A stretch of 20,000 nucleotides of DNA from Trichoplax sp. H2. Its lineage: Eukaryota. A program made the translations under genes and the position numbers. The notes below the pieces were generated by a model. It had not been told where the DNA came from, did no database searches, and saw only the letters and a list, made by a program, of their open reading frames with translations. The stretch lies in contig NOWV01000014.1 of NCBI GenBank assembly GCA_003344405.1, forward strand, positions 929,111 through 949,110, given 5' to 3'. Every line of letters starts with the position of its first letter. The stretch's first letter is position 1. Below are positions 1,292 through 19,851 of the stretch, one piece after another.

Positions 1292-1460
1292 GGAGACAGT
1301 AGTTACCTACTGAAAAAAATTCTCCAAATTTATAAATATCTTACTGTATTTATTTTTCTTCCCTTTTCTATACGTTAAATATACAAAATTTCAGATTTAG
1401 ACTATTGCTATTCTTTTAGGAATTTATCAACAATTCGATAGTAAATTTCAAACACGCAGC

Positions 1461-1466
1461 AATAAA
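1461..1466 (+). promoter_or_regulatory. Candidate polyadenylation signal (AATAAA) for the Artemis gene
   Basis: AATAAA about 170 nt after the stop codon. The motif is common in AT-rich DNA, so this is weak. Confidence 0.25.
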
Positions 1467-4400
1467 TTTGCTGATTCTGTGAACCCATCAAAAAATTTTT
1501 TTCTGATTCCGATGATAGCATAAATATAATATATCAAATCCTTTGCAATATTATTCATGTAGTAACTTATGAGAAAATATCTGTTAGGTTTTGTAAAATG
1601 TAAGTAATTCAAACAACATACTCTTTATTGGTATAATACTTATCAAATTATCGCAGTATTTTGCGTACGACTGTGGTAAAGAAAGATGTAATCATGCAAT
1701 GAAATGAGTATATTCTTTTCGTTTTAAATTTTTGACATATTTATGAGTCTGCTTTTTTTACTAGTATTTATATGGAATGAATTAGTAAAAGAATGTTAAA
1801 AGGATAAGCTTAAGTTTCATTAATCGAAGAGGTAGCAAAGCGTCTGTTGTATCAGCTTACGCATTACATACATAAAAAATTGGGTTACAAGAAGAAAGTA
1901 TGTGCTAAAGTACCGTACTACAATATTATCGCAGCTAACGCGAAAATTAACAGTAAAGTATTAATTAATCTATACTTTACTATACTATACTGTAGATGAT
2001 CTGGCTCATAAAAATTGCTGTAAATTATTTTCTCTTTCTGCAAGTTACGACGTGTAGTAAATTTATTCGTCACAATTAAGCATCAATTACAAATTGAAAT
2101 GAAAATAAGGATAAATAACCACCAAAATGCATCATAGTAAAAGTTTGTACTGATTTCTTCCTAGAACAGTTATTGGCTACATGACTGCTTACATGCAGTA
2201 TGTACCCCTACAGGTAGTCCTATTATAAAAGTCTGATACAGACGGATACTAAAAATTAGAAAGCAGTGTCAGCGAATGCTGATCGATATATACTATGAGT
2301 AAAGGATTTCAAAATCACAACAGTTGATATGAACTGCAAAAATATAGGCTAAAAATCTTGTAATGAAGGAAGAGCTGAATGCAATTATGGCAAGGTTAGA
2401 AATTTAGCTTTTTGAAAGTAATGGGTGCGCGTTGCATTTTAATTCGCCTAGAAGCATAGCCGCGTTATCTAAAACGATATCTCCAGAAGGGTCAGGGCAA
2501 CTTTACCGATTCTTATGCATCAGAAATATGAAAATAGATTTATACGTAAGATATGTCTTAAATAACGTATTTGATTAATTTACTTTGATTTTTATTATCA
2601 ATATACATTTCATGCTATCCATCTTCCTCGGCCATTTTTGGTCACTTGGTGAACAAAATAAATGGCCCATATATTTTTCGAGTGCATGCCTATTTCATTT
2701 CTAATTTTATAATGCATAAATTATATTAGAACCATAACAATTACATTTTAAACTTCTAGTAGTAACATTGAATATTACGTAGTATAACAAGGCATTTATT
2801 CAACGTATAACAAAAAACTGATATGAAATAAATTTGGTCTGCTCCCTTCCATGTATTCGAATGTACAATATATACGCGTAGGGGCCATAATATTAAAAAA
2901 TATTTAGTTTAGTCTTTAAGTAATAAAGCTATTGATAGTAACTAATGTCTTATCTAGTGTTACTTCGCAAAGCAATAGCAAGCCAACTAGGCTTTCGTGA
3001 GTAATTCCACATTTATTCGCTACATATTAAACAACATCAATCTCTTTATTTCCGTTGCAATAATTTTTTTAAGATATATTGAAAAAAACAGATTTTGGCT
3101 CATGCATTTTTGCGTCCTGTCAAGGTTGACACAAAGACAATTTGTTAATCTACCATGTCCTCGTTAGCTTATTTAGTGGTCGTAATTAATGCAAAGCGGA
3201 TAAGATACGTTGTGTTATTGCTGATTCCTCTCCCTTAAATAGCGTTTACTATTAAGATAACAATATTGAATTTAAATTGTTTCAATACCGGTATTCGACG
3301 GTGCTCAACAGTGTCAATTACATTAAAGTACATTATATTGATGGCTAATTCCTAAATAATTATCCTTCAGTTAGCATTAGTAAAGCTTTGCTAGAAGTAA
3401 TGATAATAAATTGAATAGCGTTAACTACACATTGACGGTGGTATTTTCTAGCATAGTTTTATGGTCAAAATTTTATATAAAGTAGGCGTAGAGTTGCGAT
3501 GATCCAATCTTATGCCTAATAGCGTACCGTCATAACCTAACCTAGTCTTCGACCATAGATTAATAGCATAATTTTGAGCATATTTAGCATGGCTGACATC
3601 TTACAGGCCGTAAATTCCAGTTGATGAAATTATCTGCTAGAGCATCGATGAGCATAAATATAAGCAACATCCTGTCGAATTATTAATAGTAGTCTTAAAT
3701 ATAGATACGTAACTTATATATCTAGTAATGGAAGTCCGTTGCACCATAGCTAATGGCAGTAATGTCTACAGAAGTATAGAAAAATTCTAGTTTACTAGAT
3801 TAAGTTATGCATCTGAAATACTATAGTCCTAAATGCAGATGACAATACAAGTATTAATTTGCTCAATTTATTCTATAAATTATAAACGTAGATATGCATT
3901 GTAGTTTAAAATATTTCAGCAATTTGTAACCATTTTTAAAAAATTTTATTCATGCAAAGAAGCTGCAGAAATAGATCAATAAGAGATTTCTATCTTTAAC
4001 AGCTTTATATTTTGTTATGCAACTTCATCATTACTATCGCCTTAACAAAGAAATATTCAATCCTAATCTAAAAAAATTTCGAAGACACAAAGTTCTGATA
4101 TGCAGTGATACTACCTGCAAGCAAATGATTCCTTTTCTGTGTTTGAAACACCTAATTGTATGATTCCATACTGTTTAGAAATTAGAAATTATAGTGCGAG
4201 GGCAACTTAATTACTTGCTATTTTAGAAAGGGCCTGTTACATACTGTAAACTAACATTCATGTATTTTTAACTGATATAAATACTGTAATTATCAAAATT
4301 ACCGCAGCGTTTTCCATTTACAATAAACTTAGGTATTATCAAATCCAGAAGAGTAAAACCTATAATAAGCTCTTGGTTGCTTACTCAAGACCAAAACTAC

Positions 4401-5708
4401 TATACTTTGTGCATTAATGTATATTAAAATGAGTATACGTTAATAGATGATCATATCCTCTTCACAAAATTAATAGCGATATTCTTAAAGAAGAAATGAT
4501 TTTAGTTTGTTACAGCATAGAATATTCGCCTAGAGCATCTTTTAAAAATCATGGCATCCCATCATTTTTATTGATAATTTATAATTGATTTAATTGCCAT
4601 TGTTTTGCTCAGGCTATGTTCACCAAGGCCTAAAAGAGGTTCTGGCTTTAACAATAGCAATTAATTTTAATTTTTTAATGTAATAAGTGAACATGAAAAA
4701 ATATTTTTACCGCTTTTGTTGCTGTATTTGCTATAGCCTTAAATTATATGCTGTCCTGAATCTTACTTATTCCTAACGTTATGTAGAATGGCGGGATTTA
4801 CGAAATAAAGCGATATACATGCTCATCGAATCAGGCCGTATAAACCAGCATTTATATAGCAATTTAGTATAATATATATTCATGGTTTTTGTTTCTGGAT
4901 TTCGCTTATTGATGGATTGTTCAAATTATTTCGGCGGATCATATTATTAATCTGCTAAAAAAATTCAAAATCTTACATTAAACAACAAAGACTCATTGAC
5001 TAGTTCGTAAATTTACGATCGAAATTGCACGGATTGTGTTTGTACGAAATATGCAGATAATTTTATGGTTAAATTTTCATGCATATACAATGAAGAATAT
5101 ATCGAGCACTATAATCAGCTGTAAGATGTAGACATAATCCTTAAGTACAATACTATTAAGAGCCCGAATGCGTGGATTTAGGAAAATTTTTAGATCACTA
5201 AGCAAATTTCTGATAGGCAGTCAGCAAATGACCGTTCTTATACTGTAAACGTATCCAAATTTCGTACAAAGTTTCATTCAAACAGAAACTGGGTATAGAA
5301 ACCTTACAATTTAAAATAATTCAGAATTTTTATCGTATTGAACCAATTGTTTATAAAAAGAAGTCCATATTATTTGCTATGATAGGTTTGTAATGTTACT
5401 GAAAACGAAATGGTATACACCCAGCATTGATTTTAAAATAGGTAAAAAATTAATTAATTATGATTCATTAGAGCATAAGGTTGTTTTTGTCAGCAATGTA
5501 ATGAGTGAATGAAGTGGAGGATTCTCCTTATGTTTGTAATTCTGCGTAGTTAAATAATGCATTTCAATAATTACAGACTAAGTCAGATTTTCAAAGGAAA
5601 GCTGATCAAAAGCCACAATCAAGACCGTTTTCTTCAATCGCAATGCTCCATAATTAATGAATTTTTCAAGCCAATTTCCTATCGTTTCTTGCCAGATATT
5701 CAGGCATA

Positions 5709-5799
5709 ATGCTTATGATGTCACACCTTCAATTCTGTATAAATTTAATCAAAATTGCTAGCATTTTGATCCTTTCGATAATGATCAAATCGATTACAG
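5709..5799 (+). CDS. LRR gene exon 1: signal peptide
   Basis: MLMMSHLQFCINLIKIASILILSIMIKSIT(G); hydrophobic core; phase-1 donor G|gtaact. The start could be any of three ATGs. An acceptor-like ttcttgccag ending at 5695 suggests an upstream UTR exon. Confidence 0.75.
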
Positions 5800-8700
5800 G
5801 TAACTCCCAAAACTTTAAACAGAGTAGATCTTTGTTCGATTCAAATAGGCATAATACTCGTAGGTGCATGTTTGACGGAAGTTAAAATAAATCTTCACGG
5901 TTATTGAAATTAAGGGTTGCGATAAACATTCTATAATTTACATTGTGTTTAGTATTACATTTATAGTTGAATATGTAGAAGTAATTATATGTCATCTTTG
6001 TTATCAATTTTCAAATCTATTCTAGTAAATTAAAGTTATGATTCTCTTTTAGGAAACGTTAAATTATGTCCAGAGTTTTGCGTTTGTGATTCCAGCATAT
6101 TGCAGTGTAAACATGCTAGTATCAACAAGATTCCCGTAATAAATTCCTCACCAGATAAATATTTAGAAATGTAAGTTTATATAACAATTCTATTGGAACT
6201 ATATCTACAGCTGTTAATGGGGCCATTTCTGAAAAAGAATAAAAGATAAATTTAAATCTAAAAATTGTACGTGATATTGTTAGTCGTTACTAGTATATTT
6301 TTAATAACATAACTAAAATTATTACTACCAATCCTTTATTTATTACATTACTTTGCATAAGACTAGATATGTCCTATATTATGAATGCAATTGATAGTCA
6401 GAACGGATTAATGAGATACATACCCTAACTTATTCATTTTGCCATCACAGCAATAGCAATTAGCTTAGCTTCCTTTGCGTCCTTGGCACAATTAAACTAA
6501 ACTGGGAAATTATTGATACTAGGTTAAAAATTATATAATACCAGCGGAAATACGTTCCATGCTTATAATTACTTATCTTACTTCTCTGGAATTTCGCTAT
6601 AAAGCTAAGATATTTTGCTTCTAATATCACCATAATAGTCCATACTAACTTATGAGATGTATTTTAATTTATTTTATTATACTATACGTCGCGCGAAACT
6701 CAGTTTGTTCACATTTCTATCATTGAAATACTTAAAAGTGCTACATTAAAAATAGTCAGCAATGCAACGCGAACAAAGTCTGAATCGTCTTAAGACTTGA
6801 TATATAGTAGCATCACTATGCTTATATGATCTTTGGTACATCTAATCGAAATAAAATAAATTTATACTGATCCAGTATACTACTAATGTTTATTATTTCG
6901 GCTTTCTTTTCTAACGCTTTTACCGTAAGTTTGTACTAGTAAGACTGAACATCGGCAGGCATAAAAATTAACCCTGGCAATAATAATAGACAATAACTGA
7001 TAGTATTCCCAGATTATAAGATGCTATATAGAATTATCATGGAAACATGGCATTATTATATCCCTATCCTTTACAGTAAACTTCATTTATGATTTTAAAA
7101 TTGATTTTTTGCTATAGATTATAAAGTGTAATTAATAAAGATTTTACCAGGTGTATTAGCATACATCTTCACAACATTTTATTATTATTAATGATGCCCT
7201 AAATCAATAGGACTTCACATAAAATTTAAAATGGAAGCTCTATAAATTAAACATTCCATTTTTTCATTAATTCTTGCTTTTATTTAGGAGTATGTATGAA
7301 AATAGCATTAAAGTCATTAACCAAACCGACTTTATAATTTATCCGAATTTAGAAATCATGTAAGTAATTGAATACAGTGATACATATTTGTTAAAGTGAT
7401 AAGTAGTTTTCCATACCGACAAGATTTTATTAATTAACTGAAAGCTTTGATCTAATGTGCTAATTATTCATATAAAAGAGACCTAAGCAGTAACGGACTT
7501 GAAACGATCCAGCCTAATACATTTTGTCGAATCAGTGGGCTTCTAGAATTGTAAGCTCTTTATTTAATGCTTAATTATGATGTGCCTTAAGAAATATATT
7601 TAACTTTTCCTGATAGCTATAATAAGTGCGAAGACAAATTTAATTAGCTAAAGTGATCAAAGATATTTATATGAGCGCAATTTCTAACAAACTGAACCGA
7701 TTTAATCTAATAATAAAGGTACTTATCGTTCAACCAACTAGGAGAACTAAATAGCTCTAGCTTTAATTGCCTCAAGACTCTAAACGTTTTGTAAGTGATA
7801 ATGGATACTTTACAATGCTATTGTAACTTCACTAAAAAATATTAAAGGTAATATTATTTAATGATGGTCCATCTTTCGCCAAAATAAATAATTGATTACT
7901 CATGCTGATTCCAAACAGTGCAGTAAGTTATTAACGTAGCATCTAAGTATCATATTTCGGCAGTTTAATAGTTTATTTTCAGTTACGGACTGGTTTTACT
8001 GTTATATTAGTTCAAAGACTGCATTTCCTCGTATTAAATATCCTCAAAGTAAGAAATCACTTATGATCAAGCGAACACCAAAACAATAATTTAATATTTA
8101 AATTGAGTGTTACAAAACGGCTCTTCGACAAGATAATGTAATGTACAATCAATAAGTCGATTCCCTAAACTACGTATCAGGAAGCAATATCTACCCTGTC
8201 AGGAAGACTTTTCCTATACTAGTAGACTACATAAAGACTTAGACACCTCGTATTTTACGTTAAACACTAATCTCAAGAACTCCCTTTATTATGCGATATA
8301 CCGTATTTTTATACTCATTTACAATAGTTAGACATCCTAGTTAGTAATGTTAACGTTGAAACCTTCTAATGAATCAAAAGCTAATTTTATCTTCTGGTAT
8401 CTAATGAAGACAACAGTATATATGAACAGAGGCATCTAATGACTAAATACAAAATAGTCAGATTACAATATATCCTATCCCGGAATATTTCGATGATAAT
8501 CTACAATTTACCATAAGTAAGTTATACTCACAGTGATTTGAATTGTAACAAGATTATTCTGGATTTTATCAATTTCAGTATGCTATATGTATGTATATGT
8601 ATCACTACCATAAAAGCTAATACTCTATCACATATCTGAATCAAAATCTCACTAAATAAGGGTAAACCAACAAAATTATCCTAATATAGATATTTCGACT

Positions 8701-11700
8701 ATAATCTCGATATTACAGTGTATAACAACACTGTAACATTGAGACTTATTACTCTCATACTGTTGATGGAGCACGTATATATATATATCAAGCATGTAGA
8801 TAGGTTAAAATGCTATGCAAATGATAAAAGAGACGTATTAATGATATTTATTTGATATTTAAGGTAAATAATTTCAATAATATCGATAATTTTATTATAT
8901 CAATATGAACACGCATCAGATTATAATCACACATGAACCAAAAGAAATGATCTTCATTTTTGTTTATACTCGTATACTAGATTCAAAAGGGTGAATTAGT
9001 GAGATTTTATTATTGCTTCTATAGTTAGTGCTATAACAGTTTTCAGCTTGACTTTCTTTGGAATAGGAGCCTTGCAGTTGCTGAATTAACCGAAATTCCA
9101 GAAGATTTCTTTTGTTTGTTTCCTGAATTACAAGAATTGTATGTTAACAAAATTTCTTCTTAGCTTTAATTCTCTCCTAGTTAGCCTTCAATAGGAATGA
9201 TTCGGGTTCTCTTTTAGGATATATTATGGGAATTATTTAAAGGAAATACGCAATAATACCTTCGCCTGCCTTACCAAATTGACGTCTTTGTATGTTTTAA
9301 AAAGAATTGCTTTCCAAAATTTGTTAGCGTAGATTTATTAATACAGTAAGATTGTTTAAAATTTAATTTCCATCCTAGTAAATAAATTTTCGATTCTCAT
9401 CTGATTGAGAGCCATTAAGAATAGCAGATATCATGCCTAAAAAATTTTCCGTAATTATAGCTTATTAAAGATATTTTCTGATATGACTGCTTATCGTCGA
9501 TTACTTCAAACTGATAATAACATCAAAGCAAGAATTATAGTTATTGATATTGTAGTAATTTCATTGGCTTTAATCAAAGACAGATTCTTATATTATTTTT
9601 CCTGATGTAATTTGCAAAAGATTTAGTTAGCTTAAATAGAATATAAAATTAAGTTAATATGATATAATAATAGCCAGATAAATTGCGATAATAAATAAAT
9701 ACTCTATTGGGCTGAAATTATTTCTCCTATTAATAATTAAATTATTTAGCTATTATTTTTAAATTTGAATTCTATCACAGAGATTTAGCAATGAATGAAA
9801 TCTCCTACATTGCGAGGGACTCATTCAAAAGTTTAACTTCGCTCTCGGAAATGTATGATCTAGATTCACAATTTTATAAACTATCTTAATGATATCAGCT
9901 TCTTGGTTAAATAGCTATTATTGCATAAAATATTACGATAACTAATATCAATAATTTCTAGATATCTGTCATATAATATTTTAACTTCCTATAAAGAAAG
10001 CCTCTTTGGAAAAAATACCAATTTAAAATACTTGTAAGTGAGGTCTGCTTAGCCCAAAAGCTGTGACGACATTTAACATACTGTATTCAACTTAGCAACT
10101 TAGCAACAAAAGAGAAACGAATGCTTGTTAAGTCAAAACCTTCTAGTTTCTATGATATCGTACTTATTATTATATGAATACCTTCATAACTATCGATTTA
10201 GCCACAATAGAAGTACTTTAGTTTTACCACAGTGTAAATGTAAGATTAAAAAGTTATTAACATTGCAATATATAGTAATAAATGTTTTAAATATTAAAAT
10301 ATTCTCAGGTATCTTCACTTTAATTTAATCGAAGAGGTTGGAAGCTCAAGCTTCTGCGAATCGGAAGCTTTAGTCAACCTGTAAGAATTCTGTATTTTAT
10401 AGGATTTTTTAGTATGATCTATAGTTTAATGATTTCTTTAACGATTTATTTTTGAAGAGGTAGACGTTTGACTAATATGAATTTCTATTCTTGCTAACTT
10501 TACATAAGATATCTGCATGGTAATAAGTTAGAAGATATCAACAATCAGACCTTAGGTTGTTTAAAAAAATTACAAATATTGTAAGTTCTAGGCTTAAATA
10601 AATGTACGAACATTGTCATACTAAGTATTTCGAATAATTTTTAAGCATACGGTGCGAAAAATAACAGCTTTCAGAAAAGTAATAGTAACCTATTTACAAG
10701 ATGTCTGTAATCTAGATTTTATGCCATTGGCAATTTTAGGAGAATGTTGAACATTTCTTTCTTGCTATATGCGGTAGGGATATTTCGTTAAATCCAATCA
10801 AAACTATTCACCCTAATTCTTTTTGTGGTATGCAACGCTTACATACCTTGTAAGTATTATAAGAAGAATGAGCGTAATTTTAATTGAATTACTTATTTAC
10901 TGATATTTCGTTTTGTAATTCATCTATTTGAGATTTTATTGGTCAATGCTTTAGTTTATATTCTTTTATTTCACGTAGAAACATGAAAAAAGTTGATTTA
11001 ACGTACATCAATAAAAATGACTTCAACTGCTTGGATAACCTTCAGACCTTGTATGCTTTTATAGTATATGAAAACATAGAAATGAGATATTGCTACAAAC
11101 TATAAAGATTAAATATTAAATAGCATACCGTAGTATATCTATTCATACTTTGTTTTAATTATTCTACAAAGAATTAAGATGCCTTAATTGAATATATTTA
11201 TTGATAAGAACTTAACTAGGTATCATTCATCATAATAAAGATTATATTATTCATAATTTCTCCTTGTTGAATGTCAGAAATTTACAGGGCAGTGCTATTA
11301 AGAATATAGAAAAAGACTCATTCTGCCATACTCCAGGATTGAGCAGCTTGTACGAATTTCAAAGAATAGATATTAAAATTTTGGAGTTATGCGAGCATAT
11401 GACTAAGCGCTAGCCTACTATACAAATTGTTTGAGATATTTTAATGGCTGCCATTGTAAAACGAGTTATTGCAAAACATAGTTTGTAACAATCTATTTTT
11501 AAAAGATATTGTAACTTTAGATTCGTGCAGATATATTATCAGGACTTCCATTTAGCCTAACAAAAACTAATCTATATATTTTTGTAATGATTATAATTTA
11601 CTCTCCTAATCTTAGGACCATAGAAAGATGCGAACTTGATGAAATAAGAAAGGATACCTTTGCTTGTTTAACAAAATTGGAAACCTTGTAGGTTCTGAAC

Positions 11701-14700
11701 GGTTATCTAGCGAGACCCCATTAGTACAAATTTATGTTAATATAATATGCAAAGAGATAACTTATACCTAGATCGTAGAGGTCTAAAAATAACGTTTCAT
11801 TTATGTATCGATTAAAGAAAAATAGGAATGAATAAGATCTTGAATATAGAACCAAAATCCTTCCAACAGTTAAAAAGTTTGAAGAATCTGTACGTCTTTG
11901 TCAACGTTAACAGTATCTAATTCTTTTTTGGATTACTGTACTTGAGGATTATTTCTAACGGCAAAGATTAACATATCCGTTTTCCGCACCTAATTAATTC
12001 GCAGGTATCTGAATGACAATAACCTTAAACATATATCCAACGCGACCTTCTTCGGATTGAAAAGTTTAACAGTGCTGTAAGTTTACTGTTTATTGTTAGT
12101 GATACAAAGAAAAAATCATTAGTTATTTTAGTGCTTATATCGTAGTTACAAATTAGGTGATTAAAACGATAAAGAAAAGTAAATATAGATACAAAATTAG
12201 GCGATATCAACCAAGATCATGAGTTTCTAACAAGAAATAACAATAAATTCACTAATTAAAAGTTACAAAAATTTTTGGATATTACGACTTTGGGGTTTGC
12301 CAAATACATCCGTTTACCAAGTTTTACGTAATTAAAGTTAATGTCGATGTCATAATATATAGTGTTACCTTTGAATTTGAATGATATAACTTATATCGAA
12401 ATAATAATTGCATTTAGCTAAAGTGCATTCTTATTTTCCGTCTATCCAGCTAGTGATTAGTTGAGTATAGCTAATTAGCTATTTCTAACACTTATACAAC
12501 AATTACCGATAGATATCAATTAGAGATAATTTAGTCGACGAACAGAATTAATATGATCTCTAAATATTTTTAGTATAATACAACCTTTGCTAAAGGTAGT
12601 AAATTACAACCTATTTTGCTATAAAATAGCATCTAATATGTAAATCTCTCTTTGATAACATATTACTAAGTTCAATATTTTTATATTCTGCAGTAATGTA
12701 GGTGTTAATAGCATATACTCAATTCCTGCGAATACATTTTGCCATACCTATAATTTGTTGCAGTTGTATGTATTATATCTACTCGTATACCTGCTTTTAA
12801 TTCGAAATTTTTTGTTACGAAAATTGATGTTACACTTCGATTACTTACGATATTGCCCTTTTTTAACTTATAACTTTATGATTTTAAGTTATTTGTATCG
12901 ATTATTTTCAGGTACTTAACGCAGAATTTCATTAGCGATATTTCTAGCGAAACATTCAAATGTCTCTATCGCTTACGAAATCTGTAAGTAGTTTCCTTTG
13001 AGGATGTATGATCTTGCTGTCGGGCATTAGTTGCTTAGCACACAGTATCTGAAATATTTTCTTATTTCACAATATTTGATATTTTATTTAAATTACAGAT
13101 TTATCAGTATCAATTCTATTGAATCTCTTGAAAAGGGCTCGTTCAAGTATTTAAAAAGTTTATCAAATCTGTACGTTTTTAACTACTAGAAACTTCTTAA
13201 AATCTTTGGCAGTCTATCATTATGGTAATGTTTTAACTTAAATTAGTTCAAATGTACCTGGCTAAGTTTTACTTCCGCTACTAGGCACATGAATTCAAAC
13301 AGCATTTCAAATATCAGTGTCGGTGCATTTCAGGGTCTTGCATCAGTAACGTATATGTAAGCGTCATATATATATTAAATTACGATATATAAAACGCGCG
13401 TATTGATGTTATTTGCAGATATTAACCTTAAAGGTAAATGGGAATTTACACGTTTCTAGGGATTTTTCAGATAATCTAATTCCTGAATTATTTCCATTTC
13501 GAAATATAAGCTTGCTATCCACACTGTATGTAAATTTATTTGTTCAAGAAAACACTATCGTTTAGTGTGAATTTATAGGCTAATATCAATTGCAGTTTCC
13601 TGTAGCGTAGCTGATGTGGGTTTTCCACGTAAGTTTAGTAATATATTTGGAAGCTAACTTAGCATAATTCAATTTTAATAAAAATAGTATTCTGGATGAA
13701 AACATTGTTACATCTATTGAAAATAATGCATTTGAAGGCACAAATCAGCTGCAGAAACTGTTTGTATAAAAATACCTAAAAATTAAGTGGCAATACAGAT
13801 CTTGTATTGAATTTACTTATTTATTCTTTTAGCTTAATTTAATGTTTTATTTCACACCTATATAGGTCCATAAATACGAATAAAATTTCTGTAATTGACT
13901 CTTTTGCTTTGAAGGATCTAACAAAGCTTAGAGAATTGTAAGTGTGCAATTACCTTTGAGAGGCTCATTATGTTTATCAGTTTATGTTGCCTATTAATTA
14001 TTTGATCGGGTAAAGCCTATTCGGGTAAAAAGTCTATATTGTCATTACTTTCCTTGCTGAAGTAAAATATCTGTAACTTTACGAGTTATTATAGCATATG
14101 CTTAAATCTATCCTAATAGGTAATATATGTTAACCTTAACTTATGTTTTATATCAGTAAAATAGGCCATAATTTGTTGGTTTAGTGCTTTTACGATACGT
14201 AAAATAGCTCAGTTGTGTATTGATATACTTTATGTCGAATTAAATTATCAGATACTTTCGTTATGGCGGATCATTTAGTCTGATATTCATGGAGTACTAC
14301 TGTATTCTTCGGTACTAAAATCAATAAGGTTTAATCTGTATTAATCTTGCACATTAGTAAAAATTCTTAAGTATGTGGATTGACCTTATGAATTGCCTAA
14401 ATTAGAAAACTTAGCGGAAATCCTTTAAGAAATTTTTCTGGTTTATTCTTACCTGACAGTATCAACATGACATCTTTGTAAGTGTTAGCAGCTACGCTAA
14501 TCTAGGTATGTGCATAGACTTAGTATTTGAATAAATCACACTAATAGATTTGTAACTTGATACCTAGCGAGCTTTCAAGTCTTAATATTCATCAATTCCG
14601 CCAGCTAAATATAACTGGTACAACAAATATTTTGTAAGTTCAGTTAGAGTACTAATTTGAATCGTCTATCTATTTCTAATGCTATTGAATATGGTAAGGG

Positions 14701-17700
14701 CAACAAGTTATACAATAAGGCTACCGAACAAATTTGGATTTTAATTGCTTTATATTCTGTTGATCTATCGCTAATAACTGATAGCATTTTGTATATATGT
14801 TTACGAGTAACATAACGAGATTCGTCTATATGAAGATTATAATCTCAATAAATGGTTGAATTTTATCATCAGAGATCTGTCTTCGAATCACATGGATGAT
14901 CTTACCAGATTTCAATTTTGTGATTGTTTAACCTTGTAAGTTTATCATTAGAGATTTATTTCTTTACAATTGCATTTTGAAAGCTAGTAGAACGCTTTAG
15001 AACTCTAGCAGTTCTAGTAACGCTAAATTATTGTCTGAGGAATACATAGTTAAGCCTCAAACTCGACAGGAAAATAAATTCCCTTCAAATTTGAAACAGC
15101 TTTCACTTTTAGCATTAAGCTAGTTTGAAAGTTTCTTCATTAATACAAGTTATAATACGCTATATTTCAGAAATCTTTCTCAAAACAAATTGGCATATTC
15201 TAGAAAGATGAATTTTTCGTCGTGGCCATCGTTAACACAACTGTAAGTTACGGTTAAATACTTGTATCTTGCGTAAATGATTTTATTTAATCTGAGTTAC
15301 TTGCGACGGAACTCACGGTGTTACTTACAAGGGAATAATATCAGCATTATGCTTTCCTGATTCGGATTTCAGCGATTTATCGAAAAACAGATTTAAAGTC
15401 ATTGATTGGCAGACATTTTTAACGCTAAAGTTTCCTCAAAAGTTGAAGATAATGTTTGTATCAAAACTTTTGCATGATTATCATCTCTTAACATGTACAA
15501 TTGAATGCAAGGACGGCACTATATACCACACAAACTATTATCGGTACCCCAGTTTCATTGCACTACAGTGAAAGATTGAAAGAATCGCTATCGATTAGTA
15601 TACTGTTGTCACGAAAGTTATCTTCGTGGCATATACTTTATTTCTATGTTACGTTCTATATATGTTTGTATCTCAGAAATGTTTTACGGTTTCCTTAATT
15701 GTAATCTTAGTGGTTAACAGTTAATATCCTTAATTTAGGATTACATAGACTAAAATAGTAATTGACAACCAGCTAAACTGGATTATATCTATCACCTCCA
15801 AGTTGTTAAGGTTCAAAGTACAATTCCTAAGTTTATAGGAAATGTCATAATAGGATAGCTTTATGTGTATCTGTTAAACTAATAATAAGCATTGATTATT
15901 TTAATACTGTTACAGTAAATTTAATACGATTAAACTGTATCTAATTGGTACAGATAGAATCTCTTTAGGATATTAATTTGGTTAATTTCTAATAGACGAG
16001 GTGACTTTTGTAGCTAAACCGATTTTAGGTCCGAAACCTATATAAACGGCGAGTTCGCCAACAATAAATTAGATTGTGATTTTCTATTAAGTCTTGAAGG
16101 TCTCCCTACGTTGAACCCTATCTGCCTTGGAATACCAATTGTCTGGTATTCCAAATAACTGTAGTAAAGGGTAGAAGTCACTCTCTTAATACTTGTTGCA
16201 AGATAGGGTTAATCCTAATTCCTAACAACTGTATACGCAGTACTTTCCATAGTAAATAACATTTTTAAGGCAAAATTTTGCTTCCGAATTGAGTCTCTAA
16301 AAACTGTCAAAGACAAGCTTTGCCTTTATGGATATGAACATTTTAACGATTTAAGTATTAGAATTAAGTTCTGTGCTACTTAAATACTGTTCTACTGCGT
16401 CATTAAAATAATTTTTTTAAGTAGAGATTTAAGTTTGATTGTCTATTCTAAACGATGCATTCTAAAACGTAATTAAGTGACACTCGATCCTAAAGATCTT
16501 ACTTAATTAACAGTTTGTTATTACTAGACATTGATATGAAACTTACAGTTACGAATTTTTTCTAAAATCAAGTCAAAAGACATGAAAAGTACTCTTATCT
16601 CCGTAATCTTACTAGGAATCTATCTGAAAATCTCTTGCAATTGATCCATGCAAGAACATTCTCAACAATGCCGACTTTGGAACGGTTGTAAGTAGCTTTA
16701 TCCTATAGTATATATTACAATAAAATTAGAATTTTAATTTATTGTATTTTACGAATCTTCTCGATAAAGATAAATATATAATATTTTACCGAAAACGCCT
16801 TCAAAATATTTTTTTGATCAAAACTTATATTAATCTCTCGTAAAGGTATTGTCAATCAAATGAATTGAAGGAATTGAGTTTCCTAAGATCTTTGTCAGGT
16901 CTTAAATACCTGTATGTAAAACATTAGGCTAATAAGTACATATTAAGGCCATTATCTATATTATGTAAAAATATTTTATACGTGTGGTGTGTGCCTATAG
17001 CAGTACATAGTCCGATATACGAGTACAGAAAGTGAGGATTTGTAAAAATCATAAATAAGGCACGTGAACATAATACGAACGACGAGTGCACTGCATATCT
17101 TTAGAGGGCGTATTTACAAACGTTCGAGTACGCTTATTCACGTTATAAATTCATGATGAGCGATAAAAAATTGCCACAAGCTAAATTTTTCAGCAGAATA
17201 GTAATACCAATTCTAGTGTTTTATAGATACTGTATAAGATTTTAAAAAATGGCTCAAATGCTAACATTTACTTACTGTAATCAAAGCTCTCTAGTTGATA
17301 ACGAAATTATTACATTGAATAAAGAAGACTTCGCCAATTTAACGCAACTTGAAGAATTGTAAGCTATGCTTGTAAATTTCAAACATTGTAAATGCAATTG
17401 ATTTTAAAATATGAAAAGGGAATATGTGAATTTGCCGAGTAAATATATAATTATCGCGCAACGACATGATATTTTCTAGCCTATTTCTCTTCAGGTTTTG
17501 AATACTGTGATATTCTTATTCTATAAAAAACTCTGCATAATAGTACAAAAGATTTACTTCCGGCCAGCTGATGCCAAAATATCAGCACAAATTACTAATT
17601 CATATACATAACAGGATATTACGGTAGTATTTTACCGTGTATGATTTTCTTAGATTTTTAGACAAAAATTTTATTAAAGCTATGACCAATGACTACTTTA

Positions 17701-19851
17701 CAAACACTAGGCTGCAAGTGCTGTAAGTGCTTTTCACTTCTACAATTAGATTTGCAATAGATAAATTATGCAATCCAATGTACGTAGACTATATTGAATT
17801 CTATAAATAAAATTTACTATATGCTGCTGCCACAGATCACTAGCGAAGAATGATATTCACACAATAACGAATGCTTTCCATGGTTTGTCGTCTCTCAAAA
17901 CCCTGTAAGTGGCAATTTGCATAATAGGAATTTTCTATCTAGTAAACCAAGCTGAGATAAAAAGAATGTTTATAAACCCCAATAGATTGTAAGTTAATAA
18001 ATTGCAGCACTCCAAAGGGTCAGTGTTGGTTTGCAAGCTGGCTTTGATAGCCTGTGTAGATATATTGAATAATGGAATACTTAGGCTAGCAAGGTCACTA
18101 AACAGAATATTCTTATTCTGTTGTCCCGGTTAGAGGTAGTAATCAATTTACAAATATTCGCTTCTATATGAGAATAAACAGCGGATAATTAATTGATATT
18201 GTAACCCAAAGATAATTCGTCCAAAATCTTTATCGAGCTTTAATATTTAAACGTAATATAATTCTAATAGGTATAGGGTATTAAATATAAATACTTTAGA
18301 GAGCATAGTAGAGCTCGTGCATTATTTAATATATGCGTACTTAATCTAATGACCCTATAATAGTCTAAAAGATATTTTATATTATTTCTGATGCTATGTC
18401 AATGACATAAGCAGATCATTAATCAGTTCCTTTTAATTGATTTCTTCTATTCTTAATTGTAATTCCGCTGAAAGAAATTTGGATAGCAACAAAATAGATA
18501 ATTTGACTGGAATATTTGTAGAAAGACTTTCAAATTTAACTGAACTGTAAGATATTAATCTTTGGCGTACATTTGCTTACGTGTTCTCAACTTTAATTCG
18601 TCATATTGAAAACTGTATCAAATATGGAGCGAATTTTGGTTTCAAATAAAGTTGAATAAGATAGACTTTACAGTTGACTGCATATTATTCAACCTGTAGT
18701 TTGAATTAACATTTATTCAGATCAATGCAGCATAACTTGATCGGATCATTAGAAGGGAATTCATTAAGAAATTTAATTTCCATGACGCACTTGTAAGTGT
18801 TTGCTTTGAAATTCAGTAGGCTTAATCAGTCGAATTTGATGAGTTTGAGAAGTCATTTCGTAAATGCATAGAGAATTTGTACTAAAACCATCGTAGTCTG
18901 AGCTTCAGTACAATTGGAATAATTTTATCATTAACTTTTTGATTTAATTTTCAGGAATTTTTACGGAAATAAGTTGTCTTCAATTAGTAATCTAATGTAT
19001 TGGAATTTTGTGAGATTGTATGCTGGGAAGAATATTTTTGTGTTCAATATTTTATTAGTATTTTAATAATCATATATCATTTAAAACTCATAAAACAATT
19101 TTAAAAGTTGATATAAGGAACCACTAGCCATGTAGTATCAACAACCGAGCCAAATAGATTGAGAAAAATGATTAATTGATAATTTGATTAATTATTAGAT
19201 CTGTCGGAAATAATAAGCTAAATACTTTATCATGTTCTGAACTACCCTACAACACCTACGAATTGTAAGCTTTTTCCGTAAATTTAAATTTTGTAGCCTA
19301 AAATTCCGTTAGCCGGCTTTTTCCTTAAGCTTGAATCAGTATTGTTGCGAATAATTTTACTACTTCATTGCAGAGATCTGAGCAAGAATAATATATCTAA
19401 GATTGACTCAAATTGTAAACATATCTTAGGCCAAATTGCTATACTGTAAGCATTGAACATTTTATGTTGTTCAATTTTTTTGAGATAAACGCGAGCGAAT
19501 AAACTGCGAGCATAATGACCGTTATATTTTAATTTCAGGGATCTTAGCTGTAATCAATTAGTAAGCAATGGCATTAACATTCAGAAAGATATATTGGAAA
19601 AACTACATTTTGTAGTGTCATTGTAGGTTGCATTTCGAGTTATTAGAATTAATTCAAAATAGTTAGAATTCCTTTCTTATAAGACATCATTTATATAAAT
19701 AGGTTCCTAGCAAGCTATAAGATGCTATTTTTAAATTTTGAGCTACAAATTTAACTTGCATTTTAATTTGATTATTCCAATTCAGGAAATTAGCAGGTAA
19801 CAACATCGCAGAGCTACAAAATCCAATTAGACATTTCAATTTGTTGAATCT
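5709..19851 (+). CDS. Multi-exon extracellular LRR protein (signal peptide + LRRNT + >=39 LRRs), 3'-partial; possibly the ectodomain of an LGR-type GPCR or other LRR receptor
   Basis: 41 exons with AG/GT borders splice into one open frame of 2984 nt (about 994 aa). LRR consensus LxLxxNxIxxIxxxxFxxLxxLxxL. More than 15 N-x-S/T sequons. No stop, LRRCT or transmembrane segment before the window ends. Confidence 0.9.
6053..6170 (+). CDS. LRR gene exon 2: LRRNT cap
   Basis: ttttag|(G)NVKLCPEFCVCDSSILQCKHASINKIPVINSSPDKYLE|gtaagt; CPxxCxCxxxxxxC motif; phase 1 to 2. Confidence 0.9.
7288..7359 (+). CDS. LRR exon 1 (72 nt)
   Basis: tttag|SMYENSIKVINQTDFIIYPNLEI|gtaagt. Confidence 0.88.
7479..7550 (+). 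CDS. LRR exon 2 (72 nt)
   Basis: aaag|DLSSNGLETIQPNTFCRISGLLE|gtaagc. Confidence 0.88.
7719..7790 (+). CDS. LRR exon 3 (72 nt)
   Basis: aaag|YLSFNQLGELNSSSFNCLKTLNV|gtaagt. Confidence 0.88.
8705..8744. repeat. Intronic inverted repeat, 17-bp arms (15/17 match), 6-nt loop
   Basis: TCTCGATATTACAGTGT-ataaca-ACACTGTAACATTGAGA. Confidence 0.7.
9067..9138 (+). CDS. LRR exon 4 (72 nt)
   Basis: aatag|SLAVAELTEIPEDFFCLFPELQE|gtatgt. Confidence 0.86.
9218..9289 (+). CDS. LRR exon 5 (72 nt)
   Basis: ttttag|IYYGNYLKEIRNNTFACLTKLTS|gtatgt. Confidence 0.88.
9781..9852 (+). CDS. LRR exon 6 (72 nt)
   Basis: cacag|DLAMNEISYIARDSFKSLTSLSE|gtatga. Confidence 0.9.
9962..10033 (+). CDS. LRR exon 7 (72 nt)
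   Basis: ttctag|YLSYNILTSYKESLFGKNTNLKY|gtaagt. Confidence 0.9.
10309..10380 (+). CDS. LRR exon 8 (72 nt)
   Basis: tctcag|YLHFNLIEEVGSSSFCESEALVN|gtaaga. Confidence 0.9.
10509..10580 (+). CDS. LRR exon 9 (72 nt)
   Basis: cataag|YLHGNKLEDINNQTLGCLKKLQI|gtaagt. Confidence 0.88.
10778..10849 (+). CDS. LRR exon 10 (72 nt)
   Basis: ggtag|DISLNPIKTIHPNSFCGMQRLHT|gtaagt. Confidence 0.9.
10979..11050 (+). CDS. LRR exon 11 (72 nt)
   Basis: cgtag|NMKKVDLTYINKNDFNCLDNLQT|gtatgc. Confidence 0.88.
11278..11349 (+). CDS. LRR exon 12 (72 nt)
   Basis: gtcag|NLQGSAIKNIEKDSFCHTPGLSS|gtacga. Confidence 0.87.
11616..11687 (+). CDS. LRR exon 13 (72 nt)
   Basis: cttag|TIERCELDEIRKDTFACLTKLET|gtaggt. Confidence 0.88.
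11818..11889 (+). CDS. LRR exon 14 (72 nt)
   Basis: ttaaag|KIGMNKILNIEPKSFQQLKSLKN|gtacgt; weak acceptor. Confidence 0.82.
12005..12076 (+). CDS. LRR exon 15 (72 nt)
   Basis: cgcag|YLNDNNLKHISNATFFGLKSLTV|gtaagt. Confidence 0.92.
12694..12765 (+). CDS. LRR exon 16 (72 nt)
   Basis: ctgcag|NVGVNSIYSIPANTFCHTYNLLQ|gtatgt. Confidence 0.9.
12912..12983 (+). CDS. LRR exon 17 (72 nt)
   Basis: tttcag|YLTQNFISDISSETFKCLYRLRN|gtaagt. Confidence 0.92.
13099..13170 (+). CDS. LRR exon 18 (72 nt)
   Basis: ttacag|FISINSIESLEKGSFKYLKSLSN|gtacgt. Confidence 0.9.
13285..13356 (+). CDS. LRR exon 19 (72 nt)
   Basis: actag|HMNSNSISNISVGAFQGLASVTY|gtaagc. Confidence 0.92.
13460..13525 (+). CDS. LRR exon 20 (66 nt)
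   Basis: ttctag|DFSDNLIPELFPFRNISLLST|gtatgt. Confidence 0.87.
13688..13759 (+). CDS. LRR exon 21 (72 nt)
   Basis: aatag|ILDENIVTSIENNAFEGTNQLQK|gtttgt. Confidence 0.87.
13866..13937 (+). CDS. LRR exon 22 (72 nt)
   Basis: tatag|SINTNKISVIDSFALKDLTKLRE|gtaagt. Confidence 0.9.
14406..14477 (+). CDS. LRR exon 23 (72 nt)
   Basis: attag|KLSGNPLRNFSGLFLPDSINMTS|gtaagt. Confidence 0.87.
14568..14633 (+). CDS. LRR exon 24 (66 nt, irregular)
   Basis: cctag|ELSSLNIHQFRQLNITGTTNI|gtaagt. Confidence 0.8.
14873..14935 (+). CDS. LRR exon 25 (63 nt)
   Basis: atcag|DLSSNHMDDLTRFQFCDCLT|gtaagt. Confidence 0.86.
15171..15242 (+). CDS. LRR exon 26 (72 nt)
   Basis: tttcag|NLSQNKLAYSRKMNFSSWPSLTQ|gtaagt. 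Confidence 0.9.
15373..15453 (+). CDS. LRR exon 27 (81 nt)
   Basis: tttcag|DLSKNRFKVIDWQTFLTLKFPQKLKI|gtttgt. Confidence 0.83.
16127..16154. repeat. Intronic perfect inverted repeat, 11-bp arms, 6-nt loop
   Basis: TTGGAATACCA-attgtc-TGGTATTCCAA. Confidence 0.7.
16616..16687 (+). CDS. LRR exon 28 (72 nt)
   Basis: actag|NLSENLLQLIHARTFSTMPTLER|gtaagt. Confidence 0.92.
16846..16911 (+). CDS. LRR exon 29 (66 nt)
   Basis: gtaaag|YCQSNELKELSFLRSLSGLKY|gtatgt. Confidence 0.86.
17287..17358 (+). CDS. LRR exon 30 (72 nt)
   Basis: tcaaag|SLVDNEIITLNKEDFANLTQLEE|gtaagc. Confidence 0.88.
17654..17722 (+). CDS. LRR exon 31 (69 nt)
   Basis: tcttag|FLDKNFIKAMTNDYFTNTRLQV|gtaagt. Confidence 0.88.
17836..17904 (+). 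CDS. LRR exon 32 (69 nt)
   Basis: cacag|SLAKNDIHTITNAFHGLSSLKT|gtaagt. Confidence 0.9.
18475..18546 (+). CDS. LRR exon 33 (72 nt)
   Basis: gaaag|NLDSNKIDNLTGIFVERLSNLTE|gtaaga. Confidence 0.87.
18721..18792 (+). CDS. LRR exon 34 (72 nt)
   Basis: attcag|SMQHNLIGSLEGNSLRNLISMTH|gtaagt. Confidence 0.9.
18955..19017 (+). CDS. LRR exon 35 (63 nt)
   Basis: tttcag|NFYGNKLSSISNLMYWNFVR|gtatgc. Confidence 0.83.
19199..19264 (+). CDS. LRR exon 36 (66 nt)
   Basis: attag|SVGNNKLNTLSCSELPYNTYE|gtaagc. Confidence 0.85.
19374..19445 (+). CDS. LRR exon 37 (72 nt)
   Basis: ttgcag|DLSKNNISKIDSNCKHILGQIAI|gtaagc. Confidence 0.9.
19539..19622 (+). CDS. LRR exon 38 (84 nt)
   Basis: tttcag|DLSCNQLVSNGINIQKDILEKLHFVVS|gtaggt; an internal gtaagc at 19561 is out of phase. 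Confidence 0.8.
19786..19851 (+). CDS. LRR exon 39 (66 nt); gene continues past the window
   Basis: attcag|KLAGNNIAELQNPIRHFNLLN|gtaagt. Confidence 0.87.

What the first reader, a model, noticed from the sequence alone, without database searches (positions are those of the whole stretch)
5709..19851. Hidden giant LRR ectodomain: >=39 uninterrupted repeats, one exon each
Seen: a gene absent from the ORF track. It has a signal peptide, an LRRNT cap and at least 39 tandem LRRs (925 aa of repeats) with no internal LRRCT/LRRNT caps, and it is still open at the window edge. Known: LGR4/5 have about 17 LRRs and TLRs about 19-27, and Slit splits its LRRs into capped domains. Chaoptin-like proteins are among the few extracellular examples of similar length. 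One phase-2 exon of about 72 nt per LRR is typical of glycoprotein-hormone-receptor/LGR genes. Inference: a lineage-specific, greatly elongated LRR receptor or adhesion protein whose solenoid would exceed a full horseshoe turn.
Basis: partly seen in the sequence, partly recalled or inferred. Interest (0 to 1): 0.75.

Follow-up and report, generated by a model that had tools for sequence, protein, structure and literature searches.

The report
Long leucine-rich-repeat surface protein gene
The window holds the start of a real animal gene for a secreted or cell-surface protein made of 39 back-to-back leucine-rich repeats, one per tiny exon; it is unusually long but belongs to a known kind.

Summary
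On the + strand, 41 exons (5709-19851) splice into 2984 nt, or 994 codons, with no stop. All 40 introns are GT..AG.

- **Exon 1:** a start codon and the protein's only strongly hydrophobic segment, which looks like a signal peptide.
- **Exon 2:** a four-cysteine LRR N-terminal cap.
- **Exons 3-41:** one LRR each, all joined by phase-2 introns. 28 of 39 are exactly 72 nt.

The reading frame is still open at 19851.

What lies downstream cannot be seen, so receptor versus adhesion protein stays open. My best guess is the ectodomain of a lineage-specific LGR-type receptor (confidence about 0.4). The exon pattern, the cap type and position, and the best solved-structure matches (LGR4/5) fit this reading. 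So do published placozoan LGRs with up to 34 LRRs. None of these features is diagnostic.

The length is not unprecedented. Drosophila chaoptin has 38 LRRs, and sequence databases hold many proteins with 30-46. No close relative turned up (at most 32% identity), but the spliced protein could not be sent to any database tool.

An unexpected feature is six adjacent-repeat cysteine pairs, which may be disulfide staples.

Verdict: a real gene, a new member of a known kind, of moderate interest.

The parts
5709..5799 (+). Exon 1: ATG plus a 30-aa signal-like peptide, ending at a phase-1 donor
   Evidence: First ATG after an in-frame stop; donor gtaact. It holds the only strongly hydrophobic stretch of the 994 aa, at residues 7-30.
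6053..6170 (+). Exon 2: four-Cys LRR N-terminal cap plus the start of LRR 1; enters in phase 1 and leaves in phase 2
   Evidence: Acceptor ttctcttttag and donor gtaagt. Aligns to the FLRT3 and Slit2 N-caps. Atlas places it with an LRRNT cluster at 0.93. Pfam LRRNT gave no hit.
7288..7359 (+). LRR exon 1 (72 nt)
   Evidence: 21.9 bits
7479..7550 (+). LRR exon 2 (72 nt)
   Evidence: 25.0 bits; Pfam LRR_8
7719..7790 (+). LRR exon 3 (72 nt)
   Evidence: 24.1 bits
9067..9138 (+). LRR exon 4 (72 nt)
   Evidence: 17.4 bits
9218..9289 (+). LRR exon 5 (72 nt)
   Evidence: 29.8 bits; LRR_8
9781..9852 (+). LRR exon 6 (72 nt)
   Evidence: 23.9 bits
9962..10033 (+). LRR exon 7 (72 nt)
   Evidence: 17.6 bits
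10309..10380 (+). LRR exon 8 (72 nt)
   Evidence: 19.1 bits
10509..10580 (+). LRR exon 9 (72 nt)
   Evidence: 27.8 bits; LRR_8
10778..10849 (+). LRR exon 10 (72 nt)
   Evidence: 28.1 bits; LRR_8
10979..11050 (+). LRR exon 11 (72 nt)
   Evidence: 21.5 bits
11278..11349 (+). LRR exon 12 (72 nt)
   Evidence: 21.4 bits
11616..11687 (+). LRR exon 13 (72 nt)
   Evidence: 22.1 bits
11818..11889 (+). LRR exon 14 (72 nt)
   Evidence: 21.1 bits
12005..12076 (+). LRR exon 15 (72 nt)
   Evidence: 27.0 bits; LRR_8 at E=2.8e-05
12694..12765 (+). LRR exon 16 (72 nt)
   Evidence: 21.9 bits
12912..12983 (+). LRR exon 17 (72 nt)
   Evidence: 25.7 bits; LRR_8
13099..13170 (+). LRR exon 18 (72 nt)
   Evidence: 20.0 bits
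13285..13356 (+). LRR exon 19 (72 nt)
   Evidence: 21.1 bits
13460..13525 (+). LRR exon 20 (66 nt; the weakest)
   Evidence: 7.1 bits
13688..13759 (+). LRR exon 21 (72 nt; donor gtttgt)
   Evidence: 21.4 bits
13866..13937 (+). LRR exon 22 (72 nt)
   Evidence: 21.9 bits
14406..14477 (+). LRR exon 23 (72 nt)
   Evidence: 19.4 bits
14568..14633 (+). LRR exon 24 (66 nt; lacks the conserved Asn)
   Evidence: 12.1 bits
14873..14935 (+). LRR exon 25 (63 nt; carries a lone F-C-D-C motif)
   Evidence: 18.0 bits
15171..15242 (+). LRR exon 26 (72 nt)
   Evidence: 21.7 bits
15373..15453 (+). LRR exon 27 (81 nt; an alternative donor lies at 15441)
   Evidence: The 15453 donor (gtttgt) restores the LxxLxLxxN register with the next exon. 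13.1 bits.
16616..16687 (+). LRR exon 28 (72 nt)
   Evidence: 18.1 bits
16846..16911 (+). LRR exon 29 (66 nt)
   Evidence: 14.0 bits
17287..17358 (+). LRR exon 30 (72 nt)
   Evidence: 20.6 bits
17654..17722 (+). LRR exon 31 (69 nt)
   Evidence: 18.1 bits
17836..17904 (+). LRR exon 32 (69 nt)
   Evidence: 22.8 bits; LRR_8
18475..18546 (+). LRR exon 33 (72 nt)
   Evidence: 19.9 bits
18721..18792 (+). LRR exon 34 (72 nt)
   Evidence: 20.2 bits
18955..19017 (+). LRR exon 35 (63 nt)
   Evidence: 17.1 bits
19199..19264 (+). LRR exon 36 (66 nt)
   Evidence: 9.8 bits
19374..19445 (+). LRR exon 37 (72 nt)
   Evidence: 18.1 bits
19539..19622 (+). LRR exon 38 (84 nt; an alternative donor lies at 19616)
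   Evidence: The donor gtaggt at 19623 gives a Leu junction and the correct register. 11.9 bits.
19786..19851 (+). LRR exon 39 (66 nt); phase-2 donor gtaagt, frame still open
   Evidence: 9.3 bits

Best explanation
**Shown.** One intact gene on the + strand encodes the first 994 residues of a secreted or cell-surface protein. It has a hydrophobic signal-like N-terminus, a classical four-cysteine LRR N-cap, and 39 consecutive typical LRRs of 21-28 aa. There is no second cap and no other hydrophobic segment. Each LRR sits on its own exon, and every intron between LRR exons is phase 2.

**Inferred.**
- The array grew by duplication of these frame-neutral exons long ago, since no DNA similarity is left.
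- The repeats stack into one long curved solenoid. Its concave sheet is the binding face, and 18 N-x-S/T sites suggest heavy glycosylation.
- Six cysteine pairs in neighbouring repeats act as disulfide staples on the convex side.

**Most likely identity (inferred, not shown).** This is the ligand-binding ectodomain of a lineage-specific LGR-type receptor, that is, an LRR-containing G-protein-coupled receptor. A cysteine-rich hinge and seven-helix domain would lie downstream of the window. Binding of a protein ligand on the LRR surface would be passed to the membrane domain.
For: - **Gene model:** 994 codons, 0 stops, 40 of 40 GT..AG introns, 39 of 39 LRR exons entered and left in phase 2.
- **LRR identity:** 16 of 39 single exons hit Pfam LRR_8. 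An LRR profile of the exons finds 211 PDB sequences at E<=0.001. The top rows are LGR4 (105.6 bits), LRRC15 (102.4), LGR5 (100.1), IGFALS (98.9) and LRIG1 (94.2).
- **Cap:** a classical cap directly after the signal peptide, at residue 36. It is matched by a C-x(2-4)-C-x-C-x(5-10)-C pattern in 6 of 9 LGR4/5-named proteins at residues 30-35. Two of the three misses are N-terminal fragments. The pattern occurs in 0 of 17 artichoke/chaoptin-named proteins.
- **Precedent for very long LGR ectodomains:**
  - Trichoplax has 46 LGRs, 41 of them lineage-specific with unusually many LRRs, for example 34. Most carry no GenBank accession (PMC9545775: passages, section 5 part 1 and supplementary Table 2).
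  - Library protein P0060 has about 35 LRRs followed by Pfam 7tm_1. Two relatives share its membrane domain.
- **Exon pattern:** one-LRR phase-2 exons are, from recall, the conserved gene structure of LGR and glycoprotein-hormone-receptor ectodomains.
- **Topology:** no TM-like segment within the 994 aa other than the N-terminus.
Against: - No hinge or seven-helix domain is in the window, so the defining half of an LGR is unseen.
- The exon pattern is not specific to LGRs. It also occurs in Tetrahymena LRR genes (PMC6564038), in brown-alga ROCO genes (PMC11378527, listing only), and, from recall, in Slit and LRIG.
- The PDB ranking is nearly flat: LGR4 at 105.6 bits against LRRC15 at 102.4. 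It also depends on repeat number.
- The N-cap's best PDB matches are FLRT3, Slit2, AMIGO, VLR and decorin. No LGR is among the 15 hits.
- Identity to the long-LRR receptor P0060 (29%) is no higher than to LRR proteins of other kinds (24-32%). P0060 and its relatives also have an extra N-terminal domain that this protein lacks.
- The organism is not identified.
- The disulfide staples and the glycosylation are read from sequence only.
Confidence: 0.4

Rival explanations
1. This is another capped extracellular LRR architecture. After the repeats would come an LRRCT and then Ig or FN3 domains with a single membrane helix (LRIG- or IGFALS-like), or a TIR domain (Toll-like), or simply a stop (a secreted LRR-only binder).
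For: - LRRC15, IGFALS and LRIG1 score almost as well as LGR4/5 against the exon profile.
- The N-cap aligns best to FLRT3, Slit2 and AMIGO caps.
- Library proteins with about 40 LRRs end in fn3 (P0080) or in an LRRCT followed by other domains (P0214).
- Dolan et al. note that many-LRR proteins of the Toll-related group cannot be sorted by sequence alone (PMC2235866, passages).
Against: - Characterised members of these families have far fewer repeats. TLRs have about 19-27 and LRIG has 15, both from recall.
- One LRR per phase-2 exon is not known to me for Toll-like receptors.
- Nothing in the window speaks directly for any of these C-termini.
Confidence: 0.3
2. This is a chaoptin- or artichoke-like protein. 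Nearly the whole polypeptide is LRRs. It is GPI-anchored or secreted into the matrix and acts as a homophilic adhesion or matrix molecule.
For: - The scale matches. Drosophila chaoptin has 38 LRRs of about 24 aa making up about 90% of 1,286 aa, with 16 N-glycosylation sites and a GPI anchor (PMC2672165, passages). Here there are 39 LRRs, 93% of 994 aa, and 18 sites.
- The best named hits of the LRR-profile word search are artichoke-like and chaoptin proteins of 1200-1500 aa.
- My pattern counts 33-43 repeats in those proteins, against 34 here, where it undercounts the true 39.
Against: - None of the 17 artichoke/chaoptin-named proteins has the classical four-Cys cap. They carry a different N-terminal cysteine motif.
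- Identity to them is only 24-27% over about 850-1000 aa, no better than to unrelated LRR families.
- The neighbouring gene's closest named relatives are coral, vertebrate and echinoderm Artemis at 34-39%, with no arthropod in the 120 rows listed. The Atlas, however, names Arthropoda as the commonest phylum for the nearest clusters.
Confidence: 0.2
3. This is not one functional gene. The exons belong to two or three tandem genes separated by the three introns longer than 1 kb, or the array is a decaying pseudogene.
For: - Three introns are long: 1117, 1276 and 1162 nt (from the coordinates).
- Repeat lengths become irregular after LRR 19, and one exon carries an LRRCT-like C-D-C motif.
- Every exon is frame-neutral, so an open frame is a weaker test here than in an ordinary gene.
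Against: - There is only one start codon with a signal peptide and one N-cap.
- No exon ends in a stop.
- The exons flanking the long introns have consensus phase-2 splice sites and must splice onward.
- The profile finds no hidden LRR exon in the long introns, and a cap pattern was searched for in the spliced protein only, not in the introns.
- 0 stops in 994 codons and 40 of 40 canonical introns argue against decay.
Confidence: 0.07

Closest known systems
Type-B LGRs (LGR4/5/6; insect rickets/LGR2)
   Same: - Signal peptide, then a classical N-cap at about residue 30-36, then typical 24-aa LRRs.
- LGR4/5 are the best solved-structure matches to the exon profile.
- One LRR per roughly 72-nt phase-2 exon (recalled).
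   Different: - These receptors have 14-18 LRRs (PMC9545775), against at least 39 here.
- The cysteine spacing in the cap is of the Slit/FLRT type, and no LGR is among the cap's PDB hits.
- The hinge and seven-helix domain are unseen.
Lineage-specific placozoan LGRs (for example Tadh-LGR-15)
   Same: - Non-canonical LGRs with unusually many LRRs, 34 in the published example.
- Mostly absent from GenBank annotation (PMC9545775).
- An AT-rich genome with short introns would also fit, though this comes from recall and the organism was not established.
   Different: - At least 39 repeats is more than the published example.
- No sequence of these receptors was available for comparison.
- No Trichoplax-named protein appeared in the 120 named or unnamed rows.
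Drosophila chaoptin and the arthropod artichoke/chaoptin-like proteins
   Same: About 38-43 uninterrupted 24-aa LRRs forming about 90% of a heavily glycosylated extracellular protein (PMC2672165).
   Different: - They lack the classical four-Cys cap (0 of 17).
- Identity is only 24-27%.
- The GPI signal cannot be tested.
- From recall, the fly chaoptin gene is not built of one exon per LRR.
Unnamed long-LRR GPCRs in the protein library (P0060, P0232, P0031)
   Same: 25-35 consecutive LRRs in front of a rhodopsin-type seven-helix domain. P0060 is 29% identical over 839 aa.
   Different: - They have a 250-350-aa non-LRR domain before the repeats.
- Their repeats are young, near-identical 48-aa double units.
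- Here the repeats start right after the cap and are old and diverged.
Slit
   Same: The N-cap aligns to a Slit2 domain cap. From recall, Slit LRRs are each encoded by a 72-nt exon.
   Different: Slit breaks its LRRs into four capped domains of 5-7 repeats. Here 39 repeats run without any cap.

Membership tests
LGR (LRR-containing GPCR) | Rhodopsin-type seven-helix domain after the LRR ectodomain | not testable with these tools
   The window ends 149 nt after the last LRR exon, with the frame open.
LGR (LRR-containing GPCR) | Cysteine-rich hinge of type A, B or C between the LRRs and the membrane domain | not testable with these tools
   It would lie beyond the window.
LGR (LRR-containing GPCR) | Signal peptide, cysteine N-cap and contiguous LRR ectodomain | tested here: met
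LGR (LRR-containing GPCR) | LRR exons of about 72 nt joined by phase-2 introns (recalled hallmark; not specific) | tested here: met
   39 of 39 LRR exons are phase 2 to 2, and 28 of 39 are exactly 72 nt.
LGR (LRR-containing GPCR) | Closer in sequence to LGRs than to other LRR families | tested here: inconclusive
   LGR4/5 rank first in the PDB search, but by only about 3 bits. Identity is 29% to P0060 against 24-32% to others.
Chaoptin / artichoke | About 38-41 uninterrupted LRRs forming about 90% of the protein | tested here: met
   39 LRRs, 924 of 994 aa so far. Chaoptin has 38 (PMC2672165).
Chaoptin / artichoke | Family-type N-terminus, with no classical four-Cys cap in the named members examined | tested here: not met
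   0 of 17 named members have the classical cap; this protein has it at residue 36.
Chaoptin / artichoke | C-terminal GPI signal (chaoptin) | not testable with these tools
   It would lie beyond the window.
Slit | LRRs split into four domains, each with its own LRRNT and LRRCT | tested here: not met
   The 994 aa contain one cap and no LRRCT pattern.
Toll-like receptors | LRRCT, single membrane helix and TIR domain | not testable with these tools
   It would lie beyond the window. No TM-like segment occurs after residue 30.

The most novel reading that the evidence does not exclude
This is an orphan LGR-type receptor with the longest LRR ectodomain yet described: at least 39 repeats, against 34 in the published placozoan example. 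Its N-terminal half is stiffened by six disulfide staples between neighbouring repeats. Because every exon is frame-neutral, exon skipping could produce a family of receptors with different solenoid lengths from a single gene.
Probability: 0.25. Interest if true: 0.55.

Novelty: new member of a known kind. Interest (0 to 1): 0.35.

Why it matters
- **Annotation.** Genes built from dozens of 72-nt exons are invisible to ORF-based protein catalogues. This one is missing from the collection although its neighbour is present. Whole families of such receptors may therefore be under-counted in non-model animals, as the Trichoplax LGR re-annotation already suggests (PMC9545775).
- **LGR evolution.** If the protein proves to be an LGR, it extends the known range of LGR ectodomain length.
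- **Structure.** A solenoid of 39 typical LRRs cannot stay planar. This gene would give a natural test case for how such a solenoid packs.
- **Stabilising device.** The alternating cysteine pairs may be a stabilising feature. I did not find them in any of the other 389 LRR and non-LRR proteins collected here.

The finding is useful but not surprising to a specialist.

Tried and rejected
- **Exon 2 word search.** A search with exon 2 against proteins of 82-2000 aa gave 3 candidates, none scoring. Proteins over 2000 aa were not searched.
- I repeated the search with an alignment whose first row is a 41-aa window ORF.
- **Pfam LRRNT on exon 2.** No hit at E<=1 or at E<=10.
- **Pfam on two ORFs in or next to the longest intron.** 15296-15571 and 16018-16158 gave nothing. 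I considered the 16029-16109 segment as a possible cap or exon. I rejected it because of its weak donor, low LRR score and lack of the cysteine pattern.
- **Hidden exons in the long introns.** None reached 8 bits.
- **DNA-level repeats among exons and introns.** Only two short pairs, probably chance. No tandem repeats.
- **Rfam and tRNA scans.** Nothing found.
- **P0048.** It looked as if it might share the cysteine-pair pattern. Its three matches are repeated N-caps of a fused prediction.
- **P0003.** The best BLAST hit (32%) has near-identical repeats and no signal peptide or cap. I do not treat it as a relative.
- **Literature.** I searched for a printed statement that LGR LRR exons are phase 2 and found none. 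That point therefore rests on recall. A search joining chaoptin, artichoke and leucine-rich repeat found 0 papers.
  - Sending the spliced protein to Pfam, structure prediction, the Atlas or any database, because joined sequence is not accepted.
  - Searching eukaryotic genomes or metagenome and viral contig collections, which are closed or hold bacteria and archaea only.
  - Counting paralogues in the genome.

Full report
**The window.** A loose LRR pattern hits the + strand 26 times, 20 of them inside what became the exon model, and the - strand 5 times.

**Gene model.**
- Reading the DNA around two clear fragments showed 72-nt exons bounded by AG and GTAAGT. One base completes the previous codon and two bases are left over, which makes the introns phase 2.
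- A scan of the window for every AG...GT/GC segment of 60-168 nt that is open in that phase gave 317 candidates. From these, one clean chain emerges.
- Exon 1 (5709-5799) starts at the first ATG after an in-frame stop and ends one base into a codon at gtaact. Exon 2 (6053-6170) follows ttctcttttag, completes that codon as Gly, and ends in phase 2 at gtaagt.
- 39 LRR exons follow, from 7288 to 19851.
- I changed two donors after reading the DNA. 15453 (gtttgt, the same hexamer as the donor of exon 13688-13759) replaces 15441. 19622 (gtaggt) replaces 19616. In both cases the change restores the L-x-x-L-x-L-x-x-N register across the junction.
- The final chain is 2984 nt, or 994 codons with no stop.
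- 28 of 39 LRR exons are exactly 72 nt. 40 of 40 introns are GT..AG. 18 of 41 donors are GTAAGT. The median intron is 162.5 nt.
- The last exon ends in phase 2, and the remaining 149 nt hold nothing more.

**Is it more than chance?**
- A profile built from the 39 units scores 38 hits of at least 8 bits on the + strand, all in the exons. The 39th exon scores 7.1 bits. There are no such hits on the - strand, in the upstream 5.7 kb, or in the long introns. The + hits are circular evidence, but the empty controls are not.
- Independently, 16 of 39 single exons hit Pfam LRR_8 at E<=1 (best 2.8e-05), each below the 27-bit cut-off, as expected for one repeat.
- There is no DNA-level repetition among exons or introns. 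The array is therefore old, and it is not an assembly artefact.

**The N-terminus.**
- The only strongly hydrophobic stretch of the 994 aa is residues 7-30. That fits a signal peptide and argues against any membrane helix within the repeats. SignalP could not be run.
- Exon 2 carries C-x3-C-x-C-x6-C.
- Pfam LRRNT did not match, even at E<=10.
- However, all 15 PDB hits at E<=10 lie at or near the N-terminus of LRR ectodomain chains. In the three printed alignments (FLRT3 twice and Slit2; best E=0.012) the four cysteines line up with the cap.
- The Atlas's first hit (0.93, 181 shared features) is a cluster in which 55% of members carry LRRNT.
- I accept the cap.

**Internal caps.**
- No second cap pattern and no LRRCT pattern occurs in the spliced protein.
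- One exon (14873-14935) has F-x-F-C-D-C, like the first half of an LRRCT, but an ordinary LRR follows it.
- From LRR 20 onward, repeat lengths vary between 21 and 28 aa, whereas LRRs 1-19 are all 24 aa.

**Relatives.** Joined sequence is not accepted by the search tools, so I worked with single exons and with profiles of them.
- Exon 2 found no protein of 82-2000 aa.
- By contrast, the neighbouring intronless ORF (2-1291) found itself at 100% identity, as a 440-aa protein on a 9.7-Mb contig. The collection therefore covers this genome but misses this gene.
- The LRR profile against 1.84 billion representatives gave 25,488 proteins at E<=0.001 and 309 at E<=1e-30. The best scored 330.5 bits with 46 matched repeats. 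25 of the best 150 have 31 or more matched repeats.
- Local BLASTP of the spliced protein against all collected proteins gave at most 32.4% identity over 648 aa, to P0003. That protein has near-identical repeats and no signal peptide or cap.
- Named hits of the word-based profile search are artichoke-like, chaoptin, LGR4/5, IGFALS and Toll-like proteins. All are 24-29% identical to the spliced protein.
- This absence of a close relative is weak evidence. ORF-derived proteins from unannotated genomes can never contain a gene made of 24-aa exons. Only the top 150 and top 120 rows were seen. Cluster names could not be fetched.

**What kind of protein?** Against solved structures, the exon profile ranks LGR4 first (105.6 bits). 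LRRC15 (102.4), LGR5 (100.1), IGFALS (98.9) and LRIG1 (94.2) follow closely. That places the repeats in the typical 24-aa class but does not separate families. Two observations shift the odds.
- First, the classical cap right after the signal peptide is matched by my pattern in 6 of 9 LGR4/5-named proteins, and two of the three misses are fragments. It is matched in 0 of 17 artichoke/chaoptin-named proteins, which have another cysteine motif.
- Second, very long LGR ectodomains exist:
  - The review PMC9545775 (passages, section 5 part 1 and supplementary Table 2 read) reports 46 LGRs in Trichoplax. 41 are lineage-specific with unusually many LRRs, for example 34, and most carry no GenBank accession.
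  - PMC4079206 (passages) gives 7-26 LRRs for sponge LGRs and 20 for a comb jelly LGR.
  - Library protein P0060 has about 35 LRRs before a Pfam 7tm_1 domain, and P0232 and P0031 share that domain. These three, however, have an extra N-terminal domain and young repeats, unlike the protein here.

**Arguments against over-reading the exon structure.**
- One-LRR phase-2 exon arrays arose independently in Tetrahymena (90 bp; PMC6564038, passages).
- A search listing suggests the same for brown-alga ROCO genes (PMC11378527, listing only).
- I found no paper in the library stating the LGR exon phase. That point, like the 72-nt exons of Slit and LRIG, is recalled.

**Length in context.**
- Drosophila chaoptin has 38 LRRs of about 24 aa making up about 90% of 1,286 aa. 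It has 16 N-glycosylation sites and a GPI anchor, and it looks arch-shaped by AFM (PMC2672165, passages).
- My pattern counts 33-43 repeats in 17 artichoke/chaoptin-named proteins and 34 in this one, where it undercounts the true 39.
- So at least 39 uninterrupted LRRs is at the top of the known range but not outside it.

**Organism.**
- It is not established.
- The neighbour is an Artemis/DCLRE1C-like nuclease.
- After two unnamed relatives at 67% and 63%, identity drops to 42%. The best named hits are coral, vertebrate and echinoderm Artemis at 34-39%.
- The Atlas's nearest clusters are mostly arthropod.
- A sparsely sampled animal lineage fits. A placozoan is possible but unproven, and no Trichoplax-named protein appeared.

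**An unexpected feature.**
- In the N-terminal half, cysteines sit alternately at unit position 16 in one repeat and position 17 in the next. This holds for repeats 2/3, 4/5, 8/9, 10/11, 12/13 and 16/17.
- The pattern occurs 6 times here and at most 3 times in any of the other 389 collected proteins. Those 3 are repeated N-caps of a fused prediction.
- Neighbouring repeats place these positions side by side on the convex face, so inter-repeat disulfides are a reasonable inference. This could not be tested without a fold.

**Verdict.**
This is a real, hidden, intact gene for a very long capped LRR ectodomain.
- It is probably lineage-specific.
- Its class is undecided:
  - LGR-type receptor: about 0.4
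  - other capped LRR architectures: about 0.3
  - chaoptin-like: about 0.2
  - several genes or a pseudogene: about 0.07
- It is a new member of a known kind.

Noticed in passing
window 2-1291 (+): An intronless 429-aa open frame running off the window start encodes an Artemis/DCLRE1C-like nuclease with a DRMBL domain. It matches a 440-aa protein on a 9.7-Mb contig at 100%. The next relatives are unnamed, at 67% and 63%. The best named relatives are coral, vertebrate and echinoderm Artemis at 34-39%.
   Followed up: partly
window 7479-12983 (LRR exons 2-17): Cysteines alternate between unit position 16 and position 17 in neighbouring repeats, forming six pairs. These may be inter-repeat disulfide staples.
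   Followed up: partly
window 13460-15453: After 19 repeats of exactly 24 aa, repeat lengths become irregular (21-28 aa). Exon 14873-14935 carries a lone F-C-D-C motif, like the start of an LRRCT. This may be the scar of an old domain junction.
   Followed up: no
window 6174-6206 (+, other frame): Directly after the donor of exon 2, a different frame reads an LRR-like V-S-L-Y-N-N-S-I-G-T-I stretch (7.0 bits). It may be a decayed exon or chance.
   Followed up: no
window 6171-7287, 7791-9066, 15454-16615: Three introns are longer than 1.1 kb, against a median of about 160 nt. No LRR exon, repeat, tRNA or Rfam match was found in them.
   Followed up: partly
window 1292-5708: The 4.4-kb gap between the two genes has no ORF above 62 aa and no detected RNA gene. 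It was not examined further.
   Followed up: no
library proteins P0060, P0232, P0031: A set of unnamed GPCRs has a 250-350-aa N-terminal domain, 25-35 LRRs (partly young 48-aa double repeats), a short cysteine hinge and a shared seven-helix domain. P0031 looks like two fused copies.
   Followed up: partly
window 7288-19851: All 39 LRR exons are multiples of 3 nt and phase 2 to 2. Skipping or duplicating any of them keeps the reading frame, so isoforms of different length are possible in principle.
   Followed up: no
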